Numbered from the stretch's first letter, positions 1 to 6,326 are shown. The stretch is 64,000 nucleotides of DNA from Terriglobia bacterium (GCA_021325275.1 JAJPHL010000075.1:16310-80309); one strand, 5' to 3'. A program made the numbers and translations. Notes: generated by a model not told the origin, from the sequence alone.

Positions 1-331
1 CGAAGGCGAGGTCACGACGAACTGCGAACCGCATGCAGCGACCGAATAAGGCCCCTGGACGGCTACCTTGGCGTTGAGCGGCGTGACGACCTGACTGACG
101 AAGGTGCCGGACTGAAACTGCAGGAACGCTACTGCATTCTCTCCGGAGAGTGCGACAGCGGCGTACGCATCCGGACTGCCCATTGACGGCGTTGCGGCCA
201 GAACTGCTATCCCTAAAGGCTGAGAGCCGATTGGCAAAGTCTGGATCCATAGGGGCGTTTGGGCGCAGGCTGGAATTAAGGCGCATAGGAGCGCGCTCAG
301 AACGGATGCGCGGACCCGCGTTGATCGCATC
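1..331 (-). CDS. Secreted (possibly lipo-) protein, N-terminal part only; the gene runs off the left edge
   Basis: Not in the ORF track because it has no stop in the window. My reverse-strand translation from ATG 331-329 gives MRSTRVRASVLSALLCALIPACAQTPLWIQTLPIGSQPLGIAVLAATPSMGSPDAYAAVALSGENAVAFLQFQSGTFVSQVVTPLNAKVAVQGPYSVAACGSQFVVTSPS. It has a basic n-region, a hydrophobic core, an A-C/A-Q cleavage region, then a beta-rich sequence. Confidence 0.5.
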
Positions 332-433
332 TTACCTACCACACTAGGCCGATCCGCATCCCCTCGCTGCCCGTCGCTTGCCACTGGTCCTCCTCTTTTT
401 AGAGAAATCGTTCGTAGAAGGGTTGACCAGTCG

Positions 434-3103
434 CTAGGACCCGATTAATCCATGGGTCCTTACCGCTGCAAGCAGGTTGTTGAGCGCCTGTTTCAGATCG
501 TTCAGCATATTCTGCTCGGTCGACGTATAGCTGGTGCCCGCTGTTTCCGTAACGCTGGCTATACCCGGCTGTTGTGCGGTAACGACCTGAGTTCCATTGA
601 CGTTGTAGGCGTGTCTTGCGTCAACGTAACCAGCATAGACGTTCGCCCACCTTTGGGAAGACTCACCGATATTGTAGGTGGCGTCCGCCGAGACCGTCAC
701 GTTGGAGCTGAATCGCGTTGAGAACGTCGTGGCCGCCTCGATTCTGAATCGTTCCGCCCGGGCGGTATAAAAGACTAACGGCAGGTCGGGGCCGCCAACT
801 CCGCCAGTTATTGTCCTGCTGGAAGCGAGGAATGTATGGGGATCAGATCCGCCCGCGAATGCGCCCATGGACACCACAGAAGCGCTGGTAGTACCTGTCG
901 CCACAGCAACAAAGTTCTCTGCGATCACACCAGTGCCGGTCACGTCTGACGAAGCAAGCCCCACAAGAAGGCGACCATTCGGATCAATCCTCATGCGTTC
1001 GGTCTGTGATGTAGCGAAGGTCAGCGGCAGATTGACTGCCGTGCCACCAGTTGCGGCAGATGAATATTGGGCGGCGGATAAACCACCGCCCAAATTGCCT
1101 TTAGAATCCACCCAGTATAGATAGGGGCTGGCATCATTGAAACTGGAGCTACTGGAGACAGTACCTCCAGAGATTGCCACCGGTTCCGGCTGACCGTTCG
1201 CAAGATCCAGGCCGAAGACAAAGTTCTTTGAAGGCGGTGCGCCACTGGCGTTCTTTACCACAACGCCGCCTACGACCACATTGGAGGCGTTCAGGTTGCC
1301 TGCCTCTAGATGGTAGAAGTAGTTCGACCGCGCGTTAGTGGGATTGTTTATAACCACTGAACTGTAGTCCGGCGAGAAGGGAGGGTTTCCAGCGTTGAAG
1401 ACGTAGACAGCGTAAAACGAATTGTTGTCGCAGTCGTTCAACAAGATGCCAGCGTCGGTTGTGGTTTCGGTTTCGCTGGAATACGCGGGCGTGTACACGA
1501 TCGTCAGTCCGACGAAAGTGTTGTGCGTCGTGTTGGCTTTGATTGTCGGCTCCAGTCCGTCGAGGACCAGACCAGTCGTGACACCGCCTACCGAGCAGTT
1601 TTCAAAGAGGTTGAAATCGGTGTCGATGTTGTCCGCAGTCGCTGTCGTCACCGTGAGTTTGAAACCTACCGACGACGTTGTCGACATGTTTTGAACGTTG
1701 AGATTGATGAACTTGGACCCATTCACACGATCCAGCAGAAGTGCGGTCTGTGCTACGCCGCTCCCGTTGAGCAACAAGTCGGACACTTCGATGTCTTGGA
1801 GTTGCACGTTCGCAGACGTTGGCGCGGCGGAAACTATCGGGCCCGGGCCGGCTGTAGTTGACCACAGCAACGTGCTGGCCGAGGCGCCGGTGCCGCCTTG
1901 CGTCTGCCCCATAGCGCCGCCGAAGCCCCGCAGCTTTACGCCATTTCCGTTCACGACGATTGTGTGCTGAATATTGAAGGTGCCCGGCATCAGCATGATG
2001 ATTCCGCCATTGGCGGCGGAGAGCGAAGCAATCGCCGCGTTGATGGCAACGGAATCATCCGTCGATCCGCCCGCCGGGGAGAGAAAAACGATTTGGTTTA
2101 CTGTCTGGGATTCGAAAGTGCCGGCGACATCGAGAGTTGCTGTCGGGCTCGTCGTACCGATGCCGACATCCGTGCCGTTGTCATACAACGCGCCCGTTGT
2201 TAGGCTGCCGCTCGAAGAAAACTTGGCAGTGTGATTCATTGTTCCAGAGCCGCTGAGCGCCGCGGAAACCTGTAGCGTCCCGTCCGGAAACATGATTCCA
2301 TCGGTGCCGGGCGTACCTGCCACATGCAGTTTCGCTGACGGCGTCGACGTGCCAATCCCGACGTTGCCGTTGTACAACATCGTTGCGACCGGGCTGCCGC
2401 CGAAATCGAAAGTTAGCTGGCAGTGGCCGCTGGTGGTATCGAGTTGTGTGGCTGTGAGGTTGGCTGCGCTTACGATGCTGTAGCCATTGCTGCCGTTCCA
2501 ACCCCAGGTGGTCATCGCGATTTTCGCGTTCGTCAAGGGATTCGAAACCGTCGCGTAGTTATACGGGTTCATTTGTATGTTCAGTGCGGAGAAAGTGCCG
2601 CGGACATTCGTAATCCCGTTAAAAGTGAATTGGTTTGCCGATCCCGTTAACCAAAAATTTGGGTTCAAGCCGTAATACATGTGGTAGTTGGCGGTATCGG
2701 GAGTTTCCTGATAGATTACCGTCCCATCCGCATTGACCACCCTCGACACCTCGCCCGTGCTGCCGGCTCGTGTCAAGTTCAGGATGCTCGTTGAGGTGGA
2801 TGGCGTCGTCACCTGAAGCTGGGCCGCCGGACTCGTCGTTCCCACGCCGACTTTGCCCGTAAAGGTGTATGCGCCGGTATCCGAGCAATCGGCGCCAAAG
2901 TTTCCACTGCTGACTTCGCTGGCCGGTGTGCTACAAGTTCCGCCGGTGATTGGGAAGGCGCCCGGAAGAGTTTCCATGATCGCGCTCACGATTAAGCGGC
3001 GATCTTTGGGGTCGGCGAGCATTTGCCGAAACGTTTCGCGCATCTCATCGCGCGAGGCGCGAGTCTTGGATTGACGCCTGTTGTGGATCAGGGTTGTTAA
3101 CAA
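434..3103 (-). CDS. Tailspike/tail-fibre-like protein with a pectate-lyase-type right-handed beta-helix
   Basis: 889-aa ORF. Three copies of the tail-fibre motif VG(I/V)GT(T/S)(S/T)PxAxLxV (GKVGVGTTSPAAQLQV, GNVGIGTSTPSAKLHVAG, GTDVGIGTTSPTATLDVAG). Pectate_lyase_3/tailspike N-cap-like DDSVAINAAIASLSAANGGIIMLMPGTFNIQHTIVVNGNGVKLRG. Later ERMRIDPNGRLLVG and ERFRIE repeats, then NIGESSQRWANVYAGYVDA and a C-terminal helical tail. No signal peptide. The only start in its own frame is TTG 3103 with no SD. Confidence 0.85.
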   Translation of the reverse strand: MLTTLIHNRRQSKTRASRDEMRETFRQMLADPKDRRLIVSAIMETLPGAFPITGGTCSTPASEVSSGNFGADCSDTGAYTFTGKVGVGTTSPAAQLQVTTPSTSTSILNLTRAGSTGEVSRVVNADGTVIYQETPDTANYHMYYGLNPNFWLTGSANQFTFNGITNVRGTFSALNIQMNPYNYATVSNPLTNAKIAMTTWGWNGSNGYSIVSAANLTATQLDTTSGHCQLTFDFGGSPVATMLYNGNVGIGTSTPSAKLHVAGTPGTDGIMFPDGTLQVSAALSGSGTMNHTAKFSSSGSLTTGALYDNGTDVGIGTTSPTATLDVAGTFESQTVNQIVFLSPAGGSTDDSVAINAAIASLSAANGGIIMLMPGTFNIQHTIVVNGNGVKLRGFGGAMGQTQGGTGASASTLLWSTTAGPGPIVSAAPTSANVQLQDIEVSDLLLNGSGVAQTALLLDRVNGSKFINLNVQNMSTTSSVGFKLTVTTATADNIDTDFNLFENCSVGGVTTGLVLDGLEPTIKANTTHNTFVGLTIVYTPAYSSETETTTDAGILLNDCDNNSFYAVYVFNAGNPPFSPDYSSVVINNPTNARSNYFYHLEAGNLNASNVVVGGVVVKNASGAPPSKNFVFGLDLANGQPEPVAISGGTVSSSSSFNDASPYLYWVDSKGNLGGGLSAAQYSSAATGGTAVNLPLTFATSQTERMRIDPNGRLLVGLASSDVTGTGVIAENFVAVATGTTSASVVSMGAFAGGSDPHTFLASSRTITGGVGGPDLPLVFYTARAERFRIEAATTFSTRFSSNVTVSADATYNIGESSQRWANVYAGYVDARHAYNVNGTQVVTAQQPGIASVTETAGTSYTSTEQNMLNDLKQALNNLLAAVRTHGLIGS

Positions 3104-3104
3104 T

Positions 3105-3135
3105 GAACGAACGAACGAACGAACGAACGAACGAA
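3105..3135. repeat. Perfect tetranucleotide microsatellite, (GAAC)7GAA on plus = (TTCG)7TTC on the coding strand
   Basis: Read directly: atGAACGAACGAACGAACGAACGAACGAACGAAatgg. It abuts the first codon (3103) of the tailspike-like ORF. All three reading frames through it give FVRS repeats (see ORFs 3045..3236 and 3097..3282). Confidence 0.97.
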
Positions 3136-3143
3136 ATGGCTCG

Positions 3144-3160
3144 CATTGGGGGGAGCCTCC
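3144..3160 (-). promoter_or_regulatory. Shine-Dalgarno GGAGG (3160-3156) plus ATG (3146-3144) reading into the repeat tract, currently out of frame with the 889-aa ORF
   Basis: Minus strand reads tttGGAGGctccccccaATGcgagccatTTCGTTCG.... The spacer is 9 nt. This ATG frame gives MRAISFVRSFVRSFIVNNPDPQQ... and stops at 3045. Confidence 0.5.
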
Positions 3161-3801
3161 AAATCAATAAAGTTCCGGCCCTCCGGGATAGCGCAAGCTG
3201 GGCGGACGCCGACGCTGATGAATTGAATCGTAGCACAAATGCAGTGGCCGGTCACGTCCAACGAAAGTAGGTAATGTCTCACTGAATTCTTGATCCCGCC
3301 GAGCAGGCTCGGTGCTCAGCCGTCACAGAATGACACACCATTTTTTACACACTGCGGTTTTTATTGTCCATCGAATCAGGCCCGTAGGTCTCGCTGCGCC
3401 GGAATCATTTGGAGCGATATGTCATAATGGTTTGAATATGCGGTTGGGTTGACCGGGAAGCACAAACCCCAGAAATACTAAAATTACAAAACGAACCTAC
3501 CGAGTAGTTAAACGCTGTAGAATCAATCTGTTAGGGGCGCGCGCCGTTACTCTTCAGCCACTGGCACAAGCGCAGCGTCAACCGCGAAATCTTCGCCGCA
3601 GAACGACGCGACCGCTTCCATGATCGTGTCGCGCAACTTTCGCGACGTCGGCCGCCTCGGTGATGCCTTTGGTGAACATCAACAAGCAATTCGTGAATCC
3701 CCGGATGTAGTGACCCGATTTTTTCCGGTCGTGGCCAATTTGAATTCGATCCCTGTGGAACTGTGAGCCAATCGTCTGCGCAGCCGCTTTGCATCTCTTC
3801 T

Positions 3802-3967
3802 TGTATCAGGGCACGGCTTCAGCCGTGCCGACCCAGACGTTTGGAAATCGTGGGCTTTAGCCCCCGCAAACAACGGCTGATCCGCAATCTTGCCAAGTGC
3901 AAAGCCTCAGGGGCTAAAGCCCCAGGAACAAGGCTGGCAGCACGGCTGAAGCCGTGCCCTGATACAA
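3802..3967. repeat. Composite nested palindrome (REP/MITE-like element)
   Basis: tgtatcagggcacggcttcagccgtgcc (3802-3829) is the exact reverse complement of ggcacggctgaagccgtgccctgataca (3940-3967), 28/28. Each arm is itself a hairpin (GGCACGGC-TTCA-GCCGTGCC). Inner hairpins gggctttagcccc (about 3852) and ggggctaaagcccc (about 3910) are also mutually inverted. Confidence 0.9.
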
Positions 3968-4204
3968 AACATATCTACGCGCAAGGGTTCGATTTCCGCA
4001 AGTCCTGGATCGAATTCAGATTGAGCTACTACCTTTTTTCCCTTGCTCGAGGCCACCGGATCGCAGTTTGTAGCGGTGTCGCCTCCTTTTACGGATGCAT
4101 GCGCACCAAACGGGTTGCGGCACAACGCAACCGCTTCATTGACACCGTTCGATGGCCCGGATACGATATGGTTCGATCGACCAGGGCTTTGGAGGGGCAC
4201 GTAA

Positions 4205-5335
4205 ATGGCGACAACTGAGACATCCGCGCGCGGCATCAGCGCCTACGAACGCTTTCAAGTGGCGTTGAAGTGGATGGTCAACGAAAAAGGAAGCGACCTG
4301 CACGTTGCCGCGGGATCGGGCTTTCGCGTTCGTCTCAAGGGAAAACTGGTCGAGCCTCCCGGTAATGTTCCGCTGGGTCCCGCCGATACCGCCACGGTGG
4401 TCGCCGGCATTCTGCTGGCGTCGCGCAAGTGCAACAAGGAAAATGTGGCGGCCACGGTCGCCGGAATCACCGATTACGATTGCTCGTATTCGATGAGCGA
4501 CCTGGGACGGTTCCGCGTGAACATCGCCTGCCAGCGCGGGTCGCTGGCGCTGGTACTCCGGCATATTCCCTTGACGCTGCCGACGGTGGAGACGCTGGGC
4601 TTGCCGAAGGTGATGGCCGATATCGCGATGACCGAGCGCGGATTGATCCTGCTGACCGGCGTGACCGGTTCCGGCAAATCGTCGACGCTCGCGGCGATGA
4701 TCAATCACGTGAATCACAACAAGCAGAACAAGATCATCACCATCGAAGATCCGATCGAATTCTTGTATCGCGATGAGAAGTGCAGCATCATGCAACGCGA
4801 ATGCGGCGCCGACACCGAAGGCTTCAGCAAAGCGTTGCGCGCGGCGTTGCGGCAGGATCCCGACATTATTCTGGTCGGCGAGATGCGCGACAAGGAAACC
4901 ATCGACATCGCGATCAAGGCGGCGGAAACGGGTCACTTGGTGTTTTCCACCGTGCACACCACCGACGCGCCGAAGACGATTTCGCGTTTGATCAGCGTGT
5001 TCGAGCCGGCGGAACAAACGTCGCTGCGCATGCGCCTTTCCGAGACGCTGAAGGCAGTGATCTCGCAGCGCCTTTTGCCGCGGGCCGACGGCACGGGCCG
5101 TGTGGTGGCGTGCGAAATCATGCGCCAAACGAAGTCGATTCAGGAGTGCATCGCCGATCCCGACAAGACCGATTCGATGAAAGACTTCATCGAGAAGGGC
5201 CGCGAGATGTACGGCATGCAGACGTTCGATCAATGCCTCACCGATTTGTACAAGGGCGGCCAGATTGATCTTGAAACGGCCAAGGGCGCGGCCACATCGC
5301 CGGCCGATTTCGAGCGCAATCTGCAGTTCCAGTAG
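4205..5335 (+). CDS. pilT: Type IV pilus retraction ATPase (PilT/PilU family)
   Basis: 376 aa. Walker A GVTGSGKSST, Walker B/Asp box DIILVGEMRD, His box GHLVFSTVHT, N-terminal GSDLHV motif. SD GGAGGGG about 8 nt upstream of the ATG. Confidence 0.93.
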   Translation: MATTETSARGISAYERFQVALKWMVNEKGSDLHVAAGSGFRVRLKGKLVEPPGNVPLGPADTATVVAGILLASRKCNKENVAATVAGITDYDCSYSMSDLGRFRVNIACQRGSLALVLRHIPLTLPTVETLGLPKVMADIAMTERGLILLTGVTGSGKSSTLAAMINHVNHNKQNKIITIEDPIEFLYRDEKCSIMQRECGADTEGFSKALRAALRQDPDIILVGEMRDKETIDIAIKAAETGHLVFSTVHTTDAPKTISRLISVFEPAEQTSLRMRLSETLKAVISQRLLPRADGTGRVVACEIMRQTKSIQECIADPDKTDSMKDFIEKGREMYGMQTFDQCLTDLYKGGQIDLETAKGAATSPADFERNLQFQ

Positions 5336-5342
5336 ACCGTTA

Positions 5343-6326
5343 ATGGAAATCCTCGACGTCATCATCATAGGCGCCGGACCCACCGGACTCGCCACGGCCA
5401 TCGAGTGTAAAAAGGCCGGGTTGTCGCTGGTGGCGATCGAAAAAGGGTGTCTCGTCAACTCGATTTCGAACTATCCGACGGAAATGATTTTCTTTACCAC
5501 GCCGGAACTGTTGGAGATCGGCGACATTCCCATGACGAGTTTGCGCGAGAAGCCGAATCGCGTGGAAGCGTTGAAGTATTACCGGAGAGTCGCGCAGCAC
5601 TACCAACTGCCGGTGCGGCTCTACGAGCGCGTCGACAAGATCGAAGGCTCGGACGGCGATTTCGTGGTGCATTCGGAAACGCAGCACGGCGAGAAACGCG
5701 TCACGCGCGGGCGCAAGCTCGTGCTGGCGACGGGATACTACGATCTGCCGAATCGCCTGGGCATTCCCGGGGAAGATTTGCCCAAAGTGCGCCACTACTA
5801 TCGCGAAGCGCACCCATTTTCGAGTTGCGATGTGTTGATCATCGGCGGCAAGAACTCGGCGGCGATTGCGGCGCTCGATTTGTATCGCCACGGCGCGCGC
5901 GTGACGATGGTGCATCGCGGCGCCGCGCTGCATCGGCACATCAAGTATTGGATCATGCCGGACATCGAGAATCGCATCAAGAGCGGTGAGATAACGGCGC
6001 ATTTCAACGCCGTTGTGAAGGCGATCGAGGAGTCGCGGGTGCTGATTTCGTCGGCGGAAGGTGAACGGTGGGTGAAAAACGATTTTGTCCTGGCGATGAC
6101 CGGCTATCATCCCGATTTTGACATGCAGAAATCCGTGGGCGTGCACATCGATCCAACGTCGGGCCGGCCGGAATGCAATCCGCAGACGTTGGAAACGAAC
6201 TCGCCGGGTGTGTACTTGGCGGGCGTGCTGGTGGCGGGCACGCACACCAGCGAGATTTTCATCGAGAACGGACGTTTCCACGGCAAGGCGATCGCCGGGG
6301 ATATCGCGAGGAAGCTAAGAGGCTAG
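5343..6326 (+). CDS. YpdA-family thioredoxin-reductase-like FAD flavoprotein (putative bacillithiol-disulfide-reductase family)
   Basis: Start moved to ATG 5343 (MEILDVIIIGAGPTGLATAIE...), 8 nt after the pilT stop. Motifs: GxGxxG, NYPTEMIFFTT, ATGYYD, IIGGKNSAA, IFIENGRFHG. From memory it looks collinear with Staphylococcus/Bacillus YpdA. Confidence 0.85.
   Translation: MEILDVIIIGAGPTGLATAIECKKAGLSLVAIEKGCLVNSISNYPTEMIFFTTPELLEIGDIPMTSLREKPNRVEALKYYRRVAQHYQLPVRLYERVDKIEGSDGDFVVHSETQHGEKRVTRGRKLVLATGYYDLPNRLGIPGEDLPKVRHYYREAHPFSSCDVLIIGGKNSAAIAALDLYRHGARVTMVHRGAALHRHIKYWIMPDIENRIKSGEITAHFNAVVKAIEESRVLISSAEGERWVKNDFVLAMTGYHPDFDMQKSVGVHIDPTSGRPECNPQTLETNSPGVYLAGVLVAGTHTSEIFIENGRFHGKAIAGDIARKLRG

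What the first reader, a model, noticed from the sequence alone, without database searches (positions are those of the whole stretch)
3045..3282. A (TTCG)7 microsatellite sits between an SD+ATG and the 889-aa tailspike-like ORF, exactly one unit out of frame: candidate translational phase-variation switch
The order on the coding (minus) strand is: GGAGG (3160-3156), a 9-nt spacer, ATG (3146-3144), 8 nt, a perfect (TTCG)7TTC tract (3135-3105), then immediately the long ORF.

In the long ORF's own frame the only start is TTG 3103, which has no SD. That frame is closed upstream by a stop at 3166-3164. The SD-equipped ATG frame reads MRAISFVRSFVRSFIVNNPDP... and terminates at 3045.

Frame arithmetic done by hand:
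- Deleting one 4-nt unit (or adding two) gives MRAISFVRSFVRSLLTTLIHNRRQSK..., which is the full tailspike-like protein.
- Adding one unit instead joins the third frame (ORF 3097..3282).
- A 4-nt unit read in any of the three frames encodes F-V-R-S, so every tract length stays translatable.

This is the classic architecture of slipped-strand phase-variable surface genes in Haemophilus and Neisseria. A perfect 31-nt tetranucleotide tract is not expected by chance in a high-GC genome. I am not aware of such a switch being described for this kind of environmental high-GC lineage. As sequenced, the gene looks OFF, or only weakly ON from the TTG.
Basis: partly seen in the sequence, partly recalled or inferred. 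Interest (0 to 1): 0.78.

Follow-up and report, generated by a model that had tools for sequence, protein, structure and literature searches.

The report
Frame-switching microsatellite in Acidobacteriota surface-protein gene
A perfect (TTCG)7 repeat sits inside the start of a large sugar-cutting, tailspike-like gene of an uncultured soil/sediment Acidobacteriota bacterium and puts it out of frame; relatives of this gene carry other slippery repeats at the same spot, some in frame and some not, which indicates a heritable random on/off switch of a kind so far known almost only from pathogens.

Summary
A perfect (TTCG)7TTC tract (3135-3105, minus strand) lies 8 nt after a GGAGG-equipped ATG (3146). 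It is one unit out of frame with the 889-codon ORF (3103-434).

- The gene belongs to a two-gene cassette of Acidobacteriota: a beta-helix 'tailspike-like' protein followed by a secreted beta-propeller/Soli_cterm partner.
- Every homologous locus with a readable 5' end that I could fetch carries a simple repeat there, or at least a short C or C/G run. Sixteen have poly-C or poly-G of 6-12 nt just after an SD-ATG leader. Four have poly-G of 8-19 nt next to a TTGACA box.
- Twelve of the coding-tract loci, counting the window, are out of frame. Ten of the eleven homologs were tested and each is repaired by exactly +1 or -1 nt in the tract. Four are in frame.
- A profile of naturally in-frame N-termini scores the window's repaired reading 21 bits above the annotated start.

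Tract-length heterogeneity of the window's own tract could not be tested. The mechanism is classical slipped-strand phase variation; the phylum, the habitat and the gene family are new. I found no paper describing it for Acidobacteriota.

The parts
3156..3160 (-). Shine-Dalgarno GGAGG, 9 nt upstream of the leader ATG
   Evidence: Read directly. GGAGG at -18..-5 occurs at only 16 of 1531 ATG triplets in the window. Homologs have AGGAGGAG or GAGAGAGGTGA at the same place.
3144..3146 (-). Leader ATG, inferred true start codon of the full-length protein
   Evidence: Homologous leaders start with SD-ATG 5-17 codons before their tract.
3105..3135 (-). Perfect (TTCG)7TTC microsatellite. It encodes F-V-R-S in every frame and is the frame-setting element.
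   Evidence: TRF: 7.8 copies, 100% matches. Unique in the window and in 717 kb of background loci. Aligned with the poly-C tracts of L087, L050 and L088.
3045..3146 (-). Leader ORF as sequenced (33 codons plus TGA), the out-of-frame reading at 7 units
   Evidence: The stop TGA 3047-3045 lies 1 nt before the in-frame ATG 3043.
3041..3043 (-). In-frame ATG (M21 of the long ORF). Start used by the NCBI/GEM gene call and a possible re-initiation site.
   Evidence: P0121 (869 aa) starts here. It has no SD.
3020..3022 (-). In-frame ATG (M28, 'MLADP'). Start used by the JGI/ENA gene call. This Met is kept in every family member with a coding-region tract.
   Evidence: P0001 (862 aa) starts here. The Met is conserved in the coding-tract loci and is L or T in the promoter-tract loci.
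434..3103 (-). Main ORF (889 codons from TTG 3103): N-terminal conserved module, GxVGIGT repeats, right-handed beta-helix core (residues about 336-670), C-terminal fibre-like region
   Evidence: PHROG tail fibre/tail spike hits, E about 1e-6. The AlphaFold core has pLDDT 70-90. Foldseek matches 7chu, AlgE4, RbmB and phage tailspikes.
1..384 (-). 5' part of the conserved partner gene (SD AGAGGAGG at 396-389, GTG 384; signal-peptide-like MRSTRVRASVLSALLCALIPACA from ATG 330). It runs off the window.
   Evidence: tblastn of partner proteins from L050, L055, L060 and L063 gives E 4e-12 to 8e-7. The partners carry beta-propeller repeats and TIGR03437 Soli_cterm.

Best explanation
The (TTCG)7 tract is a slipped-strand 'contingency' repeat. 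It lies inside the 5' coding region of a beta-helix (tailspike-like, probably polysaccharide-binding or -cleaving) protein gene of a Terriglobia (Acidobacteriota) bacterium.

Translation starts at the SD-equipped ATG 3146 and runs through the tract, which encodes part of a conserved N-terminal amphipathic helix.
- With 3n units (6 or 9) the ribosome continues into the 889-codon ORF and makes the full-length protein.
- With 7 units, as sequenced, it ends after 33 codons at TGA 3047-3045.
- With 8 units it ends after 17 codons at TAA 3099-3097.

Gain or loss of one 4-nt unit during replication therefore switches full-length protein production on and off, heritably, reversibly and at random.

Shown: the anatomy, the homology of the leader and helix, and the same design with other repeats across the family, with in-frame and out-of-frame alleles. 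Inferred: that the window's tract actually changes length at high frequency, that the ATG at 3146 is used, and the biological role. The likely role is bet-hedging over a surface or secreted glycan-active protein, for example against phage, predators or changing matrix polysaccharides.
For: 1. Anatomy verified.

2. Rarity: this is the only tetranucleotide SSR of 4 or more units in 64 kb plus 717 kb.

3. Homologous 5' ends:
- L050 has SD-ATG-MSVSS-C10, L088 has C8 and L087 has C8 in frame. They are aligned with the window's tract.
- L051-54 have C11, L058 C7, L059 C11, L060 C6+G10, L068 C11G8, L069 C10, L070 C11, L076 C12 and L082 C11, all out of frame.
- L065 (C6) and L066 (C7G7) are in frame.

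4. The ten out-of-frame loci tested are each repaired to a stop-free ORF by +1 nt (4 loci) or -1 nt (6 loci) in the tract alone; the two in-frame loci in that run needed no change. L088 was not put through this test.

5. All 10 homopolymers of 10 nt or more in 154 kb of family loci sit at this 5' end, against 1 in 717 kb of background.

6. Profile scores: M28 83.8, M21 90.8, TTG 100.7 and the 6-unit fusion 105.0 bits. Only 10 of 300 shuffled leaders reach the fusion score.

7. A whole-library phmmer search aligns relatives to window residues 7-20, upstream of both annotated starts.

8. The ORF downstream is intact and the partner gene is conserved.

9. Tetranucleotide SSRs change length at about 1e-4 per generation in H. 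influenzae (PMC2651432).
Against: - No second assembly of this exact locus could be fetched, so length variation of the (TTCG) tract itself is unobserved.
- Only 862- and 869-aa gene calls are on record for this protein. No in-frame version is recorded.
- Seven units is short compared with well-studied Haemophilus tracts (my own knowledge), so the switching rate may be low.
- No sigma-70-like promoter was found on the minus strand, and the TSS is unknown.
- Among coding tracts of 10 nt or more, 0 of 10 (counting the window) are in frame; (2/3)^10 is about 0.017. A purely neutral random-phase model does not predict this. It could mean the out-of-frame state is itself functional or favoured.
- The sequence-order-specific contribution of the 13 leader residues is weak: +4 bits, p about 0.03.
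Confidence: 0.74

Rival explanations
1. Isoform switch rather than on/off. In the 7-unit phase the leader ORF ends at TGA 3047-3045, 1 nt before ATG 3043. Terminating ribosomes re-initiate there and make a protein that lacks the N-terminal helix. The tract would then choose between a long form, a short form and no protein, for example changing localisation or anchoring.
For: - TGAgATG geometry in the window.
- In several out-of-frame homologs the leader ORF stops within -1 to +10 nt of the conserved internal ATG: L069 ends at 304 with the ATG at about 306, L059 at 428 with the ATG at 418, and L076 at 6044 with the ATG at about 6034.
- The Met of 'MLSDP/MLADP' is present in every locus with a coding-region tract. 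It is L or T in the four loci whose tract lies in the promoter.
- The excess of out-of-frame alleles (12 of 16) fits an out-of-frame state that is still useful.
Against: - In the other out-of-frame phase the leader stops 26-42 nt before the ATG.
- The internal ATGs have no SD.
- The Met conservation may simply be shared ancestry of one or two clades.
- The stop positions arise from conserved codons (GAT GAG, TCT GAT) and may be by-products.
Confidence: 0.2
2. Incidental microsatellite in a 5' untranslated leader. The protein is made from TTG 3103, ATG 3043 or ATG 3022 whatever the tract length, and the SD-ATG at 3146 is a chance or separate small ORF.
For: - Both public gene calls start downstream of the tract.
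- The long frame contains a TTG immediately after the tract.
- No direct expression data exist.
Against: - TTG 3103, ATG 3043 and ATG 3022 lack an SD, while ATG 3146 has GGAGG at 9 nt (1% background).
- Residues upstream of M21 add 10 bits to the family profile and the fused leader adds 4 more.
- In-frame relatives read straight from the SD-ATG leader into the main ORF.
- The same position carries a hypermutable tract in every relative examined.
Confidence: 0.08
3. Non-heritable recoding. The out-of-frame genes are expressed by RNA-polymerase slippage or programmed ribosomal frameshifting on the repeat, so the genomic frame is not a switch.
For: - Homopolymers of 8 nt or more are known sites of transcriptional realignment (PMC3711429).
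- The relatives have C10-C12 runs, and all such long tracts are out of frame.
Against: - The window's repeat has a 4-nt unit, not a homopolymer or a slippery heptamer.
- The correction needed is +1 nt in 4 loci, -1 nt in 6 loci and none in 4, so there is no fixed direction as programmed frameshifting requires.
- No conserved stimulatory structure was looked for or seen.
Confidence: 0.06
4. Decaying pseudogene: a frameshift mutation has inactivated the gene and the repeat has no function.
For: - The gene is out of frame as sequenced.
- The cassette is absent from the closest species representative, L001.
- One relative, L088, has a second frameshift inside the gene.
Against: - 889 codons remain open with no other lesion.
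- In the ten out-of-frame homologs tested, the only lesion between the leader ATG and about 240 nt into the main ORF is in the tract.
- The partner gene and its SD are intact.
- A perfect 31-nt repeat is not what random decay produces.
Confidence: 0.04

Closest known systems
Tetranucleotide-repeat translational phase variation in Haemophilus influenzae (lic1/lic2A/lgtC with CAAT or GACA repeats, mod with AGTC) and pentanucleotide CTCTT repeats in Neisseria opa
   Same: - A perfect short-unit repeat, not a multiple of 3, sits a few codons after an SD-ATG.
- Unit gain or loss shifts the frame into or out of a long ORF.
- The target is a surface- or glycan-related protein.
- The repeat is translatable in all frames.
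- Alternative downstream in-frame starts exist.
   Different: - The phylum (Acidobacteriota, Terriglobia), GC content of about 60% and a non-host environmental setting.
- Only 7 units.
- The target is a large beta-helix tailspike-like protein, not a glycosyltransferase, methyltransferase or adhesin of the known sets.
- Switching is not demonstrated here.
Homopolymeric poly-G/poly-C phase variation in Campylobacter jejuni, Helicobacter and Neisseria (coding tracts), and poly-G promoter-spacer tracts in Neisseria porA/opc
   Same: Relatives of the window gene carry C6-C12 or G10 runs in the 5' coding region, or G8-G19 next to a TTGACA box. In-frame and out-of-frame alleles both occur, and length differs between near-identical alleles.
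   Different: - The window itself uses a tetranucleotide, not a homopolymer.
- One gene family uses three interchangeable repeat designs at one site.
- Promoter function of the poly-G tracts is inferred from sequence only.
Phage tailspike / right-handed beta-helix polysaccharide depolymerases, lyases and epimerases (e.g. Geobacillus virus E2 ORF18 7chu, AlgE4, RbmB, CBA120 TSP2/3)
   Same: The predicted core (residues about 336-670) is a right-handed parallel beta-helix. The best Foldseek hit is 7chu, E 1.3e-9. There are weak PHROG tail-fibre and tail-spike hits.
   Different: - The context is chromosomal, next to pilT-like and redox genes.
- There is no match in 50,697 phage records and only one distant hit in IMG/VR.
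- The gene is always followed by a Sec-signal beta-propeller/Soli_cterm partner.
- It has no signal peptide and the export route is unknown.

Membership tests
SSR-mediated translational phase-variable (contingency) gene | Perfect simple-sequence tract far longer than chance allows | tested here: met
   7.8 perfect copies. No other tetranucleotide SSR of 4 or more units in 64 kb plus 717 kb.
SSR-mediated translational phase-variable (contingency) gene | Unit length is not a multiple of 3 and the tract lies within the coding region downstream of a functional-looking start, so unit changes shift the frame | tested here: met
   The 4-nt unit lies 8 nt after the GGAGG-N9-ATG. Variants computed for 2-12 units. 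The leader and helix are homologous to in-frame relatives.
SSR-mediated translational phase-variable (contingency) gene | Downstream ORF otherwise intact, so the tract is the only lesion | tested here: met
   889 open codons. The ten out-of-frame homologs tested are repaired by +1 or -1 nt in the tract.
SSR-mediated translational phase-variable (contingency) gene | Both in-frame and out-of-frame alleles, and different tract lengths, among related alleles | tested here: met
   For the family:
- In frame: L065, L066, L087 and P0123.
- Out of frame: 12 loci, counting the window.
- C11 against C7 in near-identical 5' regions.
- G14, G15, G18 and G19 at the P0008 locus.

This was not seen for the window's own tract.
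SSR-mediated translational phase-variable (contingency) gene | Tract-length variation at this very locus between strains or assemblies | not testable with these tools
   - Exact look-ups of P0001 and P0121 returned no contig.
- Flank-pattern scans of genome and metagenome collections found nothing.
- The closest species representative lacks the cassette.
SSR-mediated translational phase-variable (contingency) gene | High-frequency, reversible switching within a clonal population, with a matching change in protein | not testable with these tools
   Needs raw reads, cultures or reporter constructs.
Promoter-spacer SSR (transcriptional) phase variation | Tract between or next to the -35 and -10 elements, upstream of the transcription start | tested here: not met
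   The window tract is downstream of the SD and ATG. No promoter-like site was found on the minus strand. Four relatives do have poly-G beside a TTGACA box.
Programmed ribosomal frameshift / transcriptional realignment site | Conserved slippery motif (homopolymer or heptamer) with a fixed direction of shift across homologs | tested here: not met
   The window has a 4-nt repeat. Homologs need +1 (4 loci), -1 (6 loci) or no correction.
Right-handed beta-helix glycan-active protein (tailspike-like) | Parallel beta-helix fold | tested here: met
   The AlphaFold core at residues 336-670 has pLDDT 70-90. Foldseek finds 57 PDB hits at E of 1e-3 or better, all beta-helix enzymes or tailspikes. The rest of the model has low confidence.
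Phage tailspike (virion protein) | Encoded in a phage or prophage with other virion genes | tested here: not met
   - Neighbours are a pilT-like ATPase, an oxidoreductase and a ferredoxin.
- No hit in the phage records.
- Homologs sit between housekeeping genes or in an integrative element without virion genes.

The most novel reading that the evidence does not exclude
The repeat is a three-state selector, not a simple on/off switch, and it is built into a family-wide system. With 3n units the cell makes the full protein with its N-terminal amphipathic helix. With 3n+1 units, as sequenced, the leader ORF ends 1 nt before ATG 3043 and re-initiation yields a helix-less isoform. With 3n+2 units little or no protein is made. 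The conserved internal Met, kept only in members with a coding-region tract, and the strong excess of out-of-frame alleles would then be designed features. Uncultured soil and sediment Acidobacteriota would be diversifying the form or location of a glycan-active surface protein by hypermutation.
Probability: 0.2. Interest if true: 0.8.

Novelty: new member of a known kind. Interest (0 to 1): 0.7.

Why it matters
Repeat-driven phase variation is textbook biology for host-adapted pathogens. A 2025 review names soil and ocean bacteria as an unfilled gap (PMC11868660), and I found no paper linking it to Acidobacteriota.

Here a whole gene family in uncultured Acidobacteriota carries hypermutable tracts at one site. 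The repeat chemistry differs between members (tetranucleotide, poly-C, poly-G) and so does the position (coding region or promoter). Both in-frame and out-of-frame alleles occur in nature.

- This is the signature of selection for mutability itself.
- It points to an important, fluctuating selective pressure on a glycan-active surface or secreted protein in one of the most abundant soil phyla. Phage, predators and matrix turnover are candidates.
- It can be tested directly by counting tract lengths in existing metagenomic reads.
- It also shows that public gene calls for this family are systematically truncated at the 5' end.

Tried and rejected
- Exact-sequence look-ups of the two public gene products (P0001, P0121) to get other assemblies of the locus: none on record.
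- Flank-anchored DNA pattern with a variable gap in genome contigs and metagenome contigs: no match. The window's own contigs appear not to be in those collections.
- Synteny through the neighbouring pilT-like gene: 49 loci. The closest (L001, 92% aa) shares only window 4205-6314 and lacks the cassette.
- Phage origin: no tblastn hit in 50,697 phage records and one distant IMG/VR hit. Prophage reading rejected.
- Pfam, NCBIfam and PDB sequence searches of the main protein: nothing.
- Rfam and tRNA scans of the window: nothing.
- Promoter/terminator consensus scan: no minus-strand promoter upstream of the leader. The DNA alignment suggests a weak TTGCGC (3196-3191) box opposite the relatives' TTGACG, but I do not rely on it.
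- Full-length structure prediction: only the beta-helix core is confident, so nothing can be said about the N-terminal helix or the C-terminus.
- A word-indexed profile search with repaired N-termini found only 3 proteins. The exhaustive search was more useful.
- Fixed-direction programmed frameshifting: considered and rejected.


Full report
OBSERVATION. The feature is exactly as described. Tandem Repeats Finder gives one tetranucleotide array in the window: 3105-3135, 7.8 copies, 100% identity.

On the minus strand the order is as follows:
- GGAGG at 3160-3156, then 9 nt, then ATG at 3146-3144.
- CGAGCCAT, then (TTCG)7TTC at 3135-3105, then A.
- TTG at 3103, which opens the 889-codon ORF ending at 434.

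I recomputed the arithmetic by rebuilding the locus with 2-12 units:
- 3, 6, 9 or 12 units give one ORF of 898-910 codons from ATG 3146.
- 4, 7 or 10 units give a 29-37 codon leader ORF ending at TGA 3047-3045.
- 5, 8 or 11 units give 13-21 codons ending at TAA 3099-3097.

Chance does not explain it:
- No other perfect tetranucleotide repeat of 4 or more units exists in the window or in 717 kb of other Acidobacteriota/Myxococcota DNA fetched here.
- GGAGG at a working distance precedes only about 1% of ATG triplets in the window.

ORGANISM AND GENE. The neighbouring pilT-like ATPase gene (4205-5335; Pfam T2SSE) finds its closest relatives in Terriglobia/Acidobacteriota MAGs; the best has 92% amino-acid identity. 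That closest species representative shares only window 4205-6314. It has unrelated surface-protein genes where the window has the long ORF, so the locus is accessory.

The long protein has no Pfam, NCBIfam or PDB sequence match and only weak PHROG tail-fibre and tail-spike hits. A predicted structure is confident only for residues about 336-670, which form a right-handed parallel beta-helix. Foldseek matches that core to Geobacillus virus E2 ORF18, the AlgE4 epimerase, the RbmB polysaccharide lyase, pectin methylesterases and phage tailspikes.

It is not a prophage gene:
- There is no hit in 50,697 phage records and one distant IMG/VR hit.
- Homologs sit between housekeeping genes or in an integrative element without virion genes.

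In every homologous locus with enough downstream sequence, the gene is followed by a 590-660 aa protein with a signal peptide, beta-propeller repeats and the Solibacter C-terminal domain TIGR03437. The same partner begins at window 384 and runs off the window.

WHERE THE PROTEIN STARTS. Public gene calls for this very protein begin at ATG 3022 (862 aa) or ATG 3043 (869 aa). Both are too short.
- Homologs align to window residues upstream of M21.
- A profile made only from twelve relatives whose N-termini are naturally in frame scores the window 83.8 bits from M28, 90.8 from M21, 100.7 from TTG 3103 and 105.0 from the 6-unit fusion.
- The alignment places the family's N-terminal amphipathic helix ('lasifrsvlelfrparr') on window 'VRSFVRSLLTTLIHNRR'. 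The tract therefore encodes part of that helix, and TTG 3103 would cut it.
- The order-specific signal of the 13 leader residues alone is modest: 10 of 300 shuffles reach it.
- The relative P0008 has TTTCGTTCG at the homologous codons F-R-S. This suggests the window's tract grew from a (TTCG)2 seed (inference).

COMPARATIVE EVIDENCE. I fetched the DNA of homologs and examined their 5' ends. Every locus with a readable 5' end has a simple repeat there.

Loci with a coding-region tract after an SD-ATG leader:

| Locus | Leader and tract | Frame |
|---|---|---|
| L050 | MSVSS-C10 | out |
| L088 | C8 | out |
| L087 | MSLSSS-C8 | in |
| L051-54 | MTRLLTSLLRFFRQSS-C11 | out |
| L058 | same leader, C7 | out |
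| L076 | C12 | out |
| L059/L074 | MKSLLAAIRSFLGEAA-C11 | out |
| L069 | C10 | out |
| L070 | C11 | out |
| L065 | C6 | in |
| L060/61 | MKNLLGSIFRFFQRFSV-C6..G10 | out |
| L068 | C11G8 | out |
| L082 | C11 | out |
| L066 | C7G7 | in |
| P0123 | protein only | in |

Loci with a promoter tract and an in-frame leader:

| Locus | Tract |
|---|---|
| L055/72, L073, L056, L057 (one protein, P0008) | G15, G14, G18, G19 next to TTGACA |
| L062 | G8 |
| L063 | G8 |
| L084 | G9 |

The three closest relatives of the window's N-terminus (L087, L050, L088) have their C tract at the aligned position of the (TTCG) tract, followed by TTCAT(T/A)G in L087 as in the window.

Further points:
- The ten out-of-frame homologs tested become continuous ORFs after a single-nucleotide change in the tract: +1 nt in four and -1 nt in six.
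- L051 (C11) and L058 (C7) differ by the tract and only two SNPs over about 150 nt.
- All ten homopolymers of 10 nt or more in 154 kb of family loci lie at this 5' site. The background is one in 717 kb.

MECHANISM. The simplest reading is classical slipped-strand phase variation. Replication slippage adds or removes a 4-nt unit, and only 3n units let ribosomes that start at ATG 3146 make the full protein. The sequenced state (7 units) is out of frame.

Two observations go beyond a plain on/off model:
- Out-of-frame alleles dominate: 12 of 16 overall, and 10 of 10 among tracts of 10 nt or more, counting the window.
- In one out-of-frame phase the leader ORF ends at or next to a conserved internal ATG: 1 nt before ATG 3043 in the window, and similarly in L059, L069 and L076. 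The Met of 'MLSDP/MLADP' is present in all coding-tract members but not in the four promoter-tract members.

This allows an isoform-switch variant, in which re-initiation gives a helix-less protein. I rate it at about 0.2.

Fixed-direction programmed frameshifting is excluded by the mixed +1/-1 corrections. Transcriptional slippage is conceivable for the C10-C12 relatives (PMC3711429) but not for a tetranucleotide. Decay is unlikely because the tract is the only lesion found.

LIMITS.
- I could not obtain another assembly of this locus, so variation of the (TTCG) tract itself is untested.
- The promoter and TSS are unknown.
- The export route and substrate of the protein are unknown.
- Poly-G lengths at the P0008 locus may partly reflect sequencing or assembly error at long G runs. 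Two of those contigs break at the tract.

COMPARISON AND NOVELTY. The architecture is that of Haemophilus and Neisseria coding-repeat contingency genes. The relatives mirror the poly-G/C systems of Campylobacter, Helicobacter and Neisseria. Tetranucleotide SSRs change length at about 1e-4 per generation in H. influenzae (PMC2651432).

What is new is the lineage and habitat, the target gene family, and the family-wide interchange of repeat type and position at one functional site. No paper in the searchable library links phase variation to Acidobacteriota. A 2025 review lists soil and ocean bacteria as a gap (PMC11868660).

I file it as a new member of a known kind. Interest is 0.7, and confidence in the switch interpretation is about 0.74.

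Noticed in passing
window 3736-4023: A nested palindromic element lies in the 1.1 kb intergenic region between the leader and the pilT-like gene. It has a 28-nt perfect inverted repeat (3801-3828 / 3940-3967, 111 nt apart) inside a 17-nt one (3736-3752 / 4007-4023). GGCACGGCTTCAGCCGTGCC occurs only here in the window. Similar GGGCACGG..CCGTGCC and GGGGCTTCAGCCCC motifs lie upstream of the homolog in L084. It could be a MITE or REP-like element, or an invertible segment.
   Followed up: partly
window 1-396 (minus strand): The conserved partner gene begins here (SD AGAGGAGG 396-389, GTG 384, signal-peptide-like segment from ATG 330) and runs off the window. Partners in other loci have beta-propeller repeats and the Solibacter C-terminal domain TIGR03437, E about 1e-50. 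It is probably co-transcribed, so the tract may also affect it by polarity.
   Followed up: partly
L069 3128-3136: A G9 run interrupts a second beta-helix-like ORF downstream of the tailspike-like gene. The reading frame changes across the run. This is another candidate frame switch in the same locus.
   Followed up: no
L055 993-12808: The P0008 cassette lies in what looks like an integrative mobile element: a Replic_Relax protein, HTH_17, a sigma-70 region-4 protein, a phage-type integrase and a Type ISP restriction-modification gene.
   Followed up: no
L065 4833-, L066 4312-, L070 5410-: A second tailspike-like gene, with its own SD-ATG leader and tract, follows the first cassette on the same contig. 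The cassettes therefore occur in tandem arrays.
   Followed up: partly
L088 960-1180: The tailspike-like gene of L088 is split into 194- and 654-aa calls by a further frameshift at a short C run (GTACCCCGCC), in addition to its out-of-frame C8 leader tract.
   Followed up: no
L013 10400-10420; L022 4264-4284; L015 73-112; L014 5802-5829; L019 5573-5600 and 13979-14010: Tandem 7- and 8-nt repeats of 3-5 copies occur in several Acidobacteriota loci. Two of them lie 17 nt after the pilT-like gene (with coordinates). Their meaning is unknown.
   Followed up: no
window 3148-3153 (minus strand): A C6 run (CTCCCCCCAATG) lies between the GGAGG and the leader ATG. It is short, but its length sets the SD-start spacing.
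   Followed up: no
L001 4120-9527: In the closest species representative the cassette's position upstream of the pilT-like gene is occupied by an amidohydrolase, a PKD/OmpA protein and a BNR/Sortilin-repeat protein. This region is a variable surface-protein island.
   Followed up: partly
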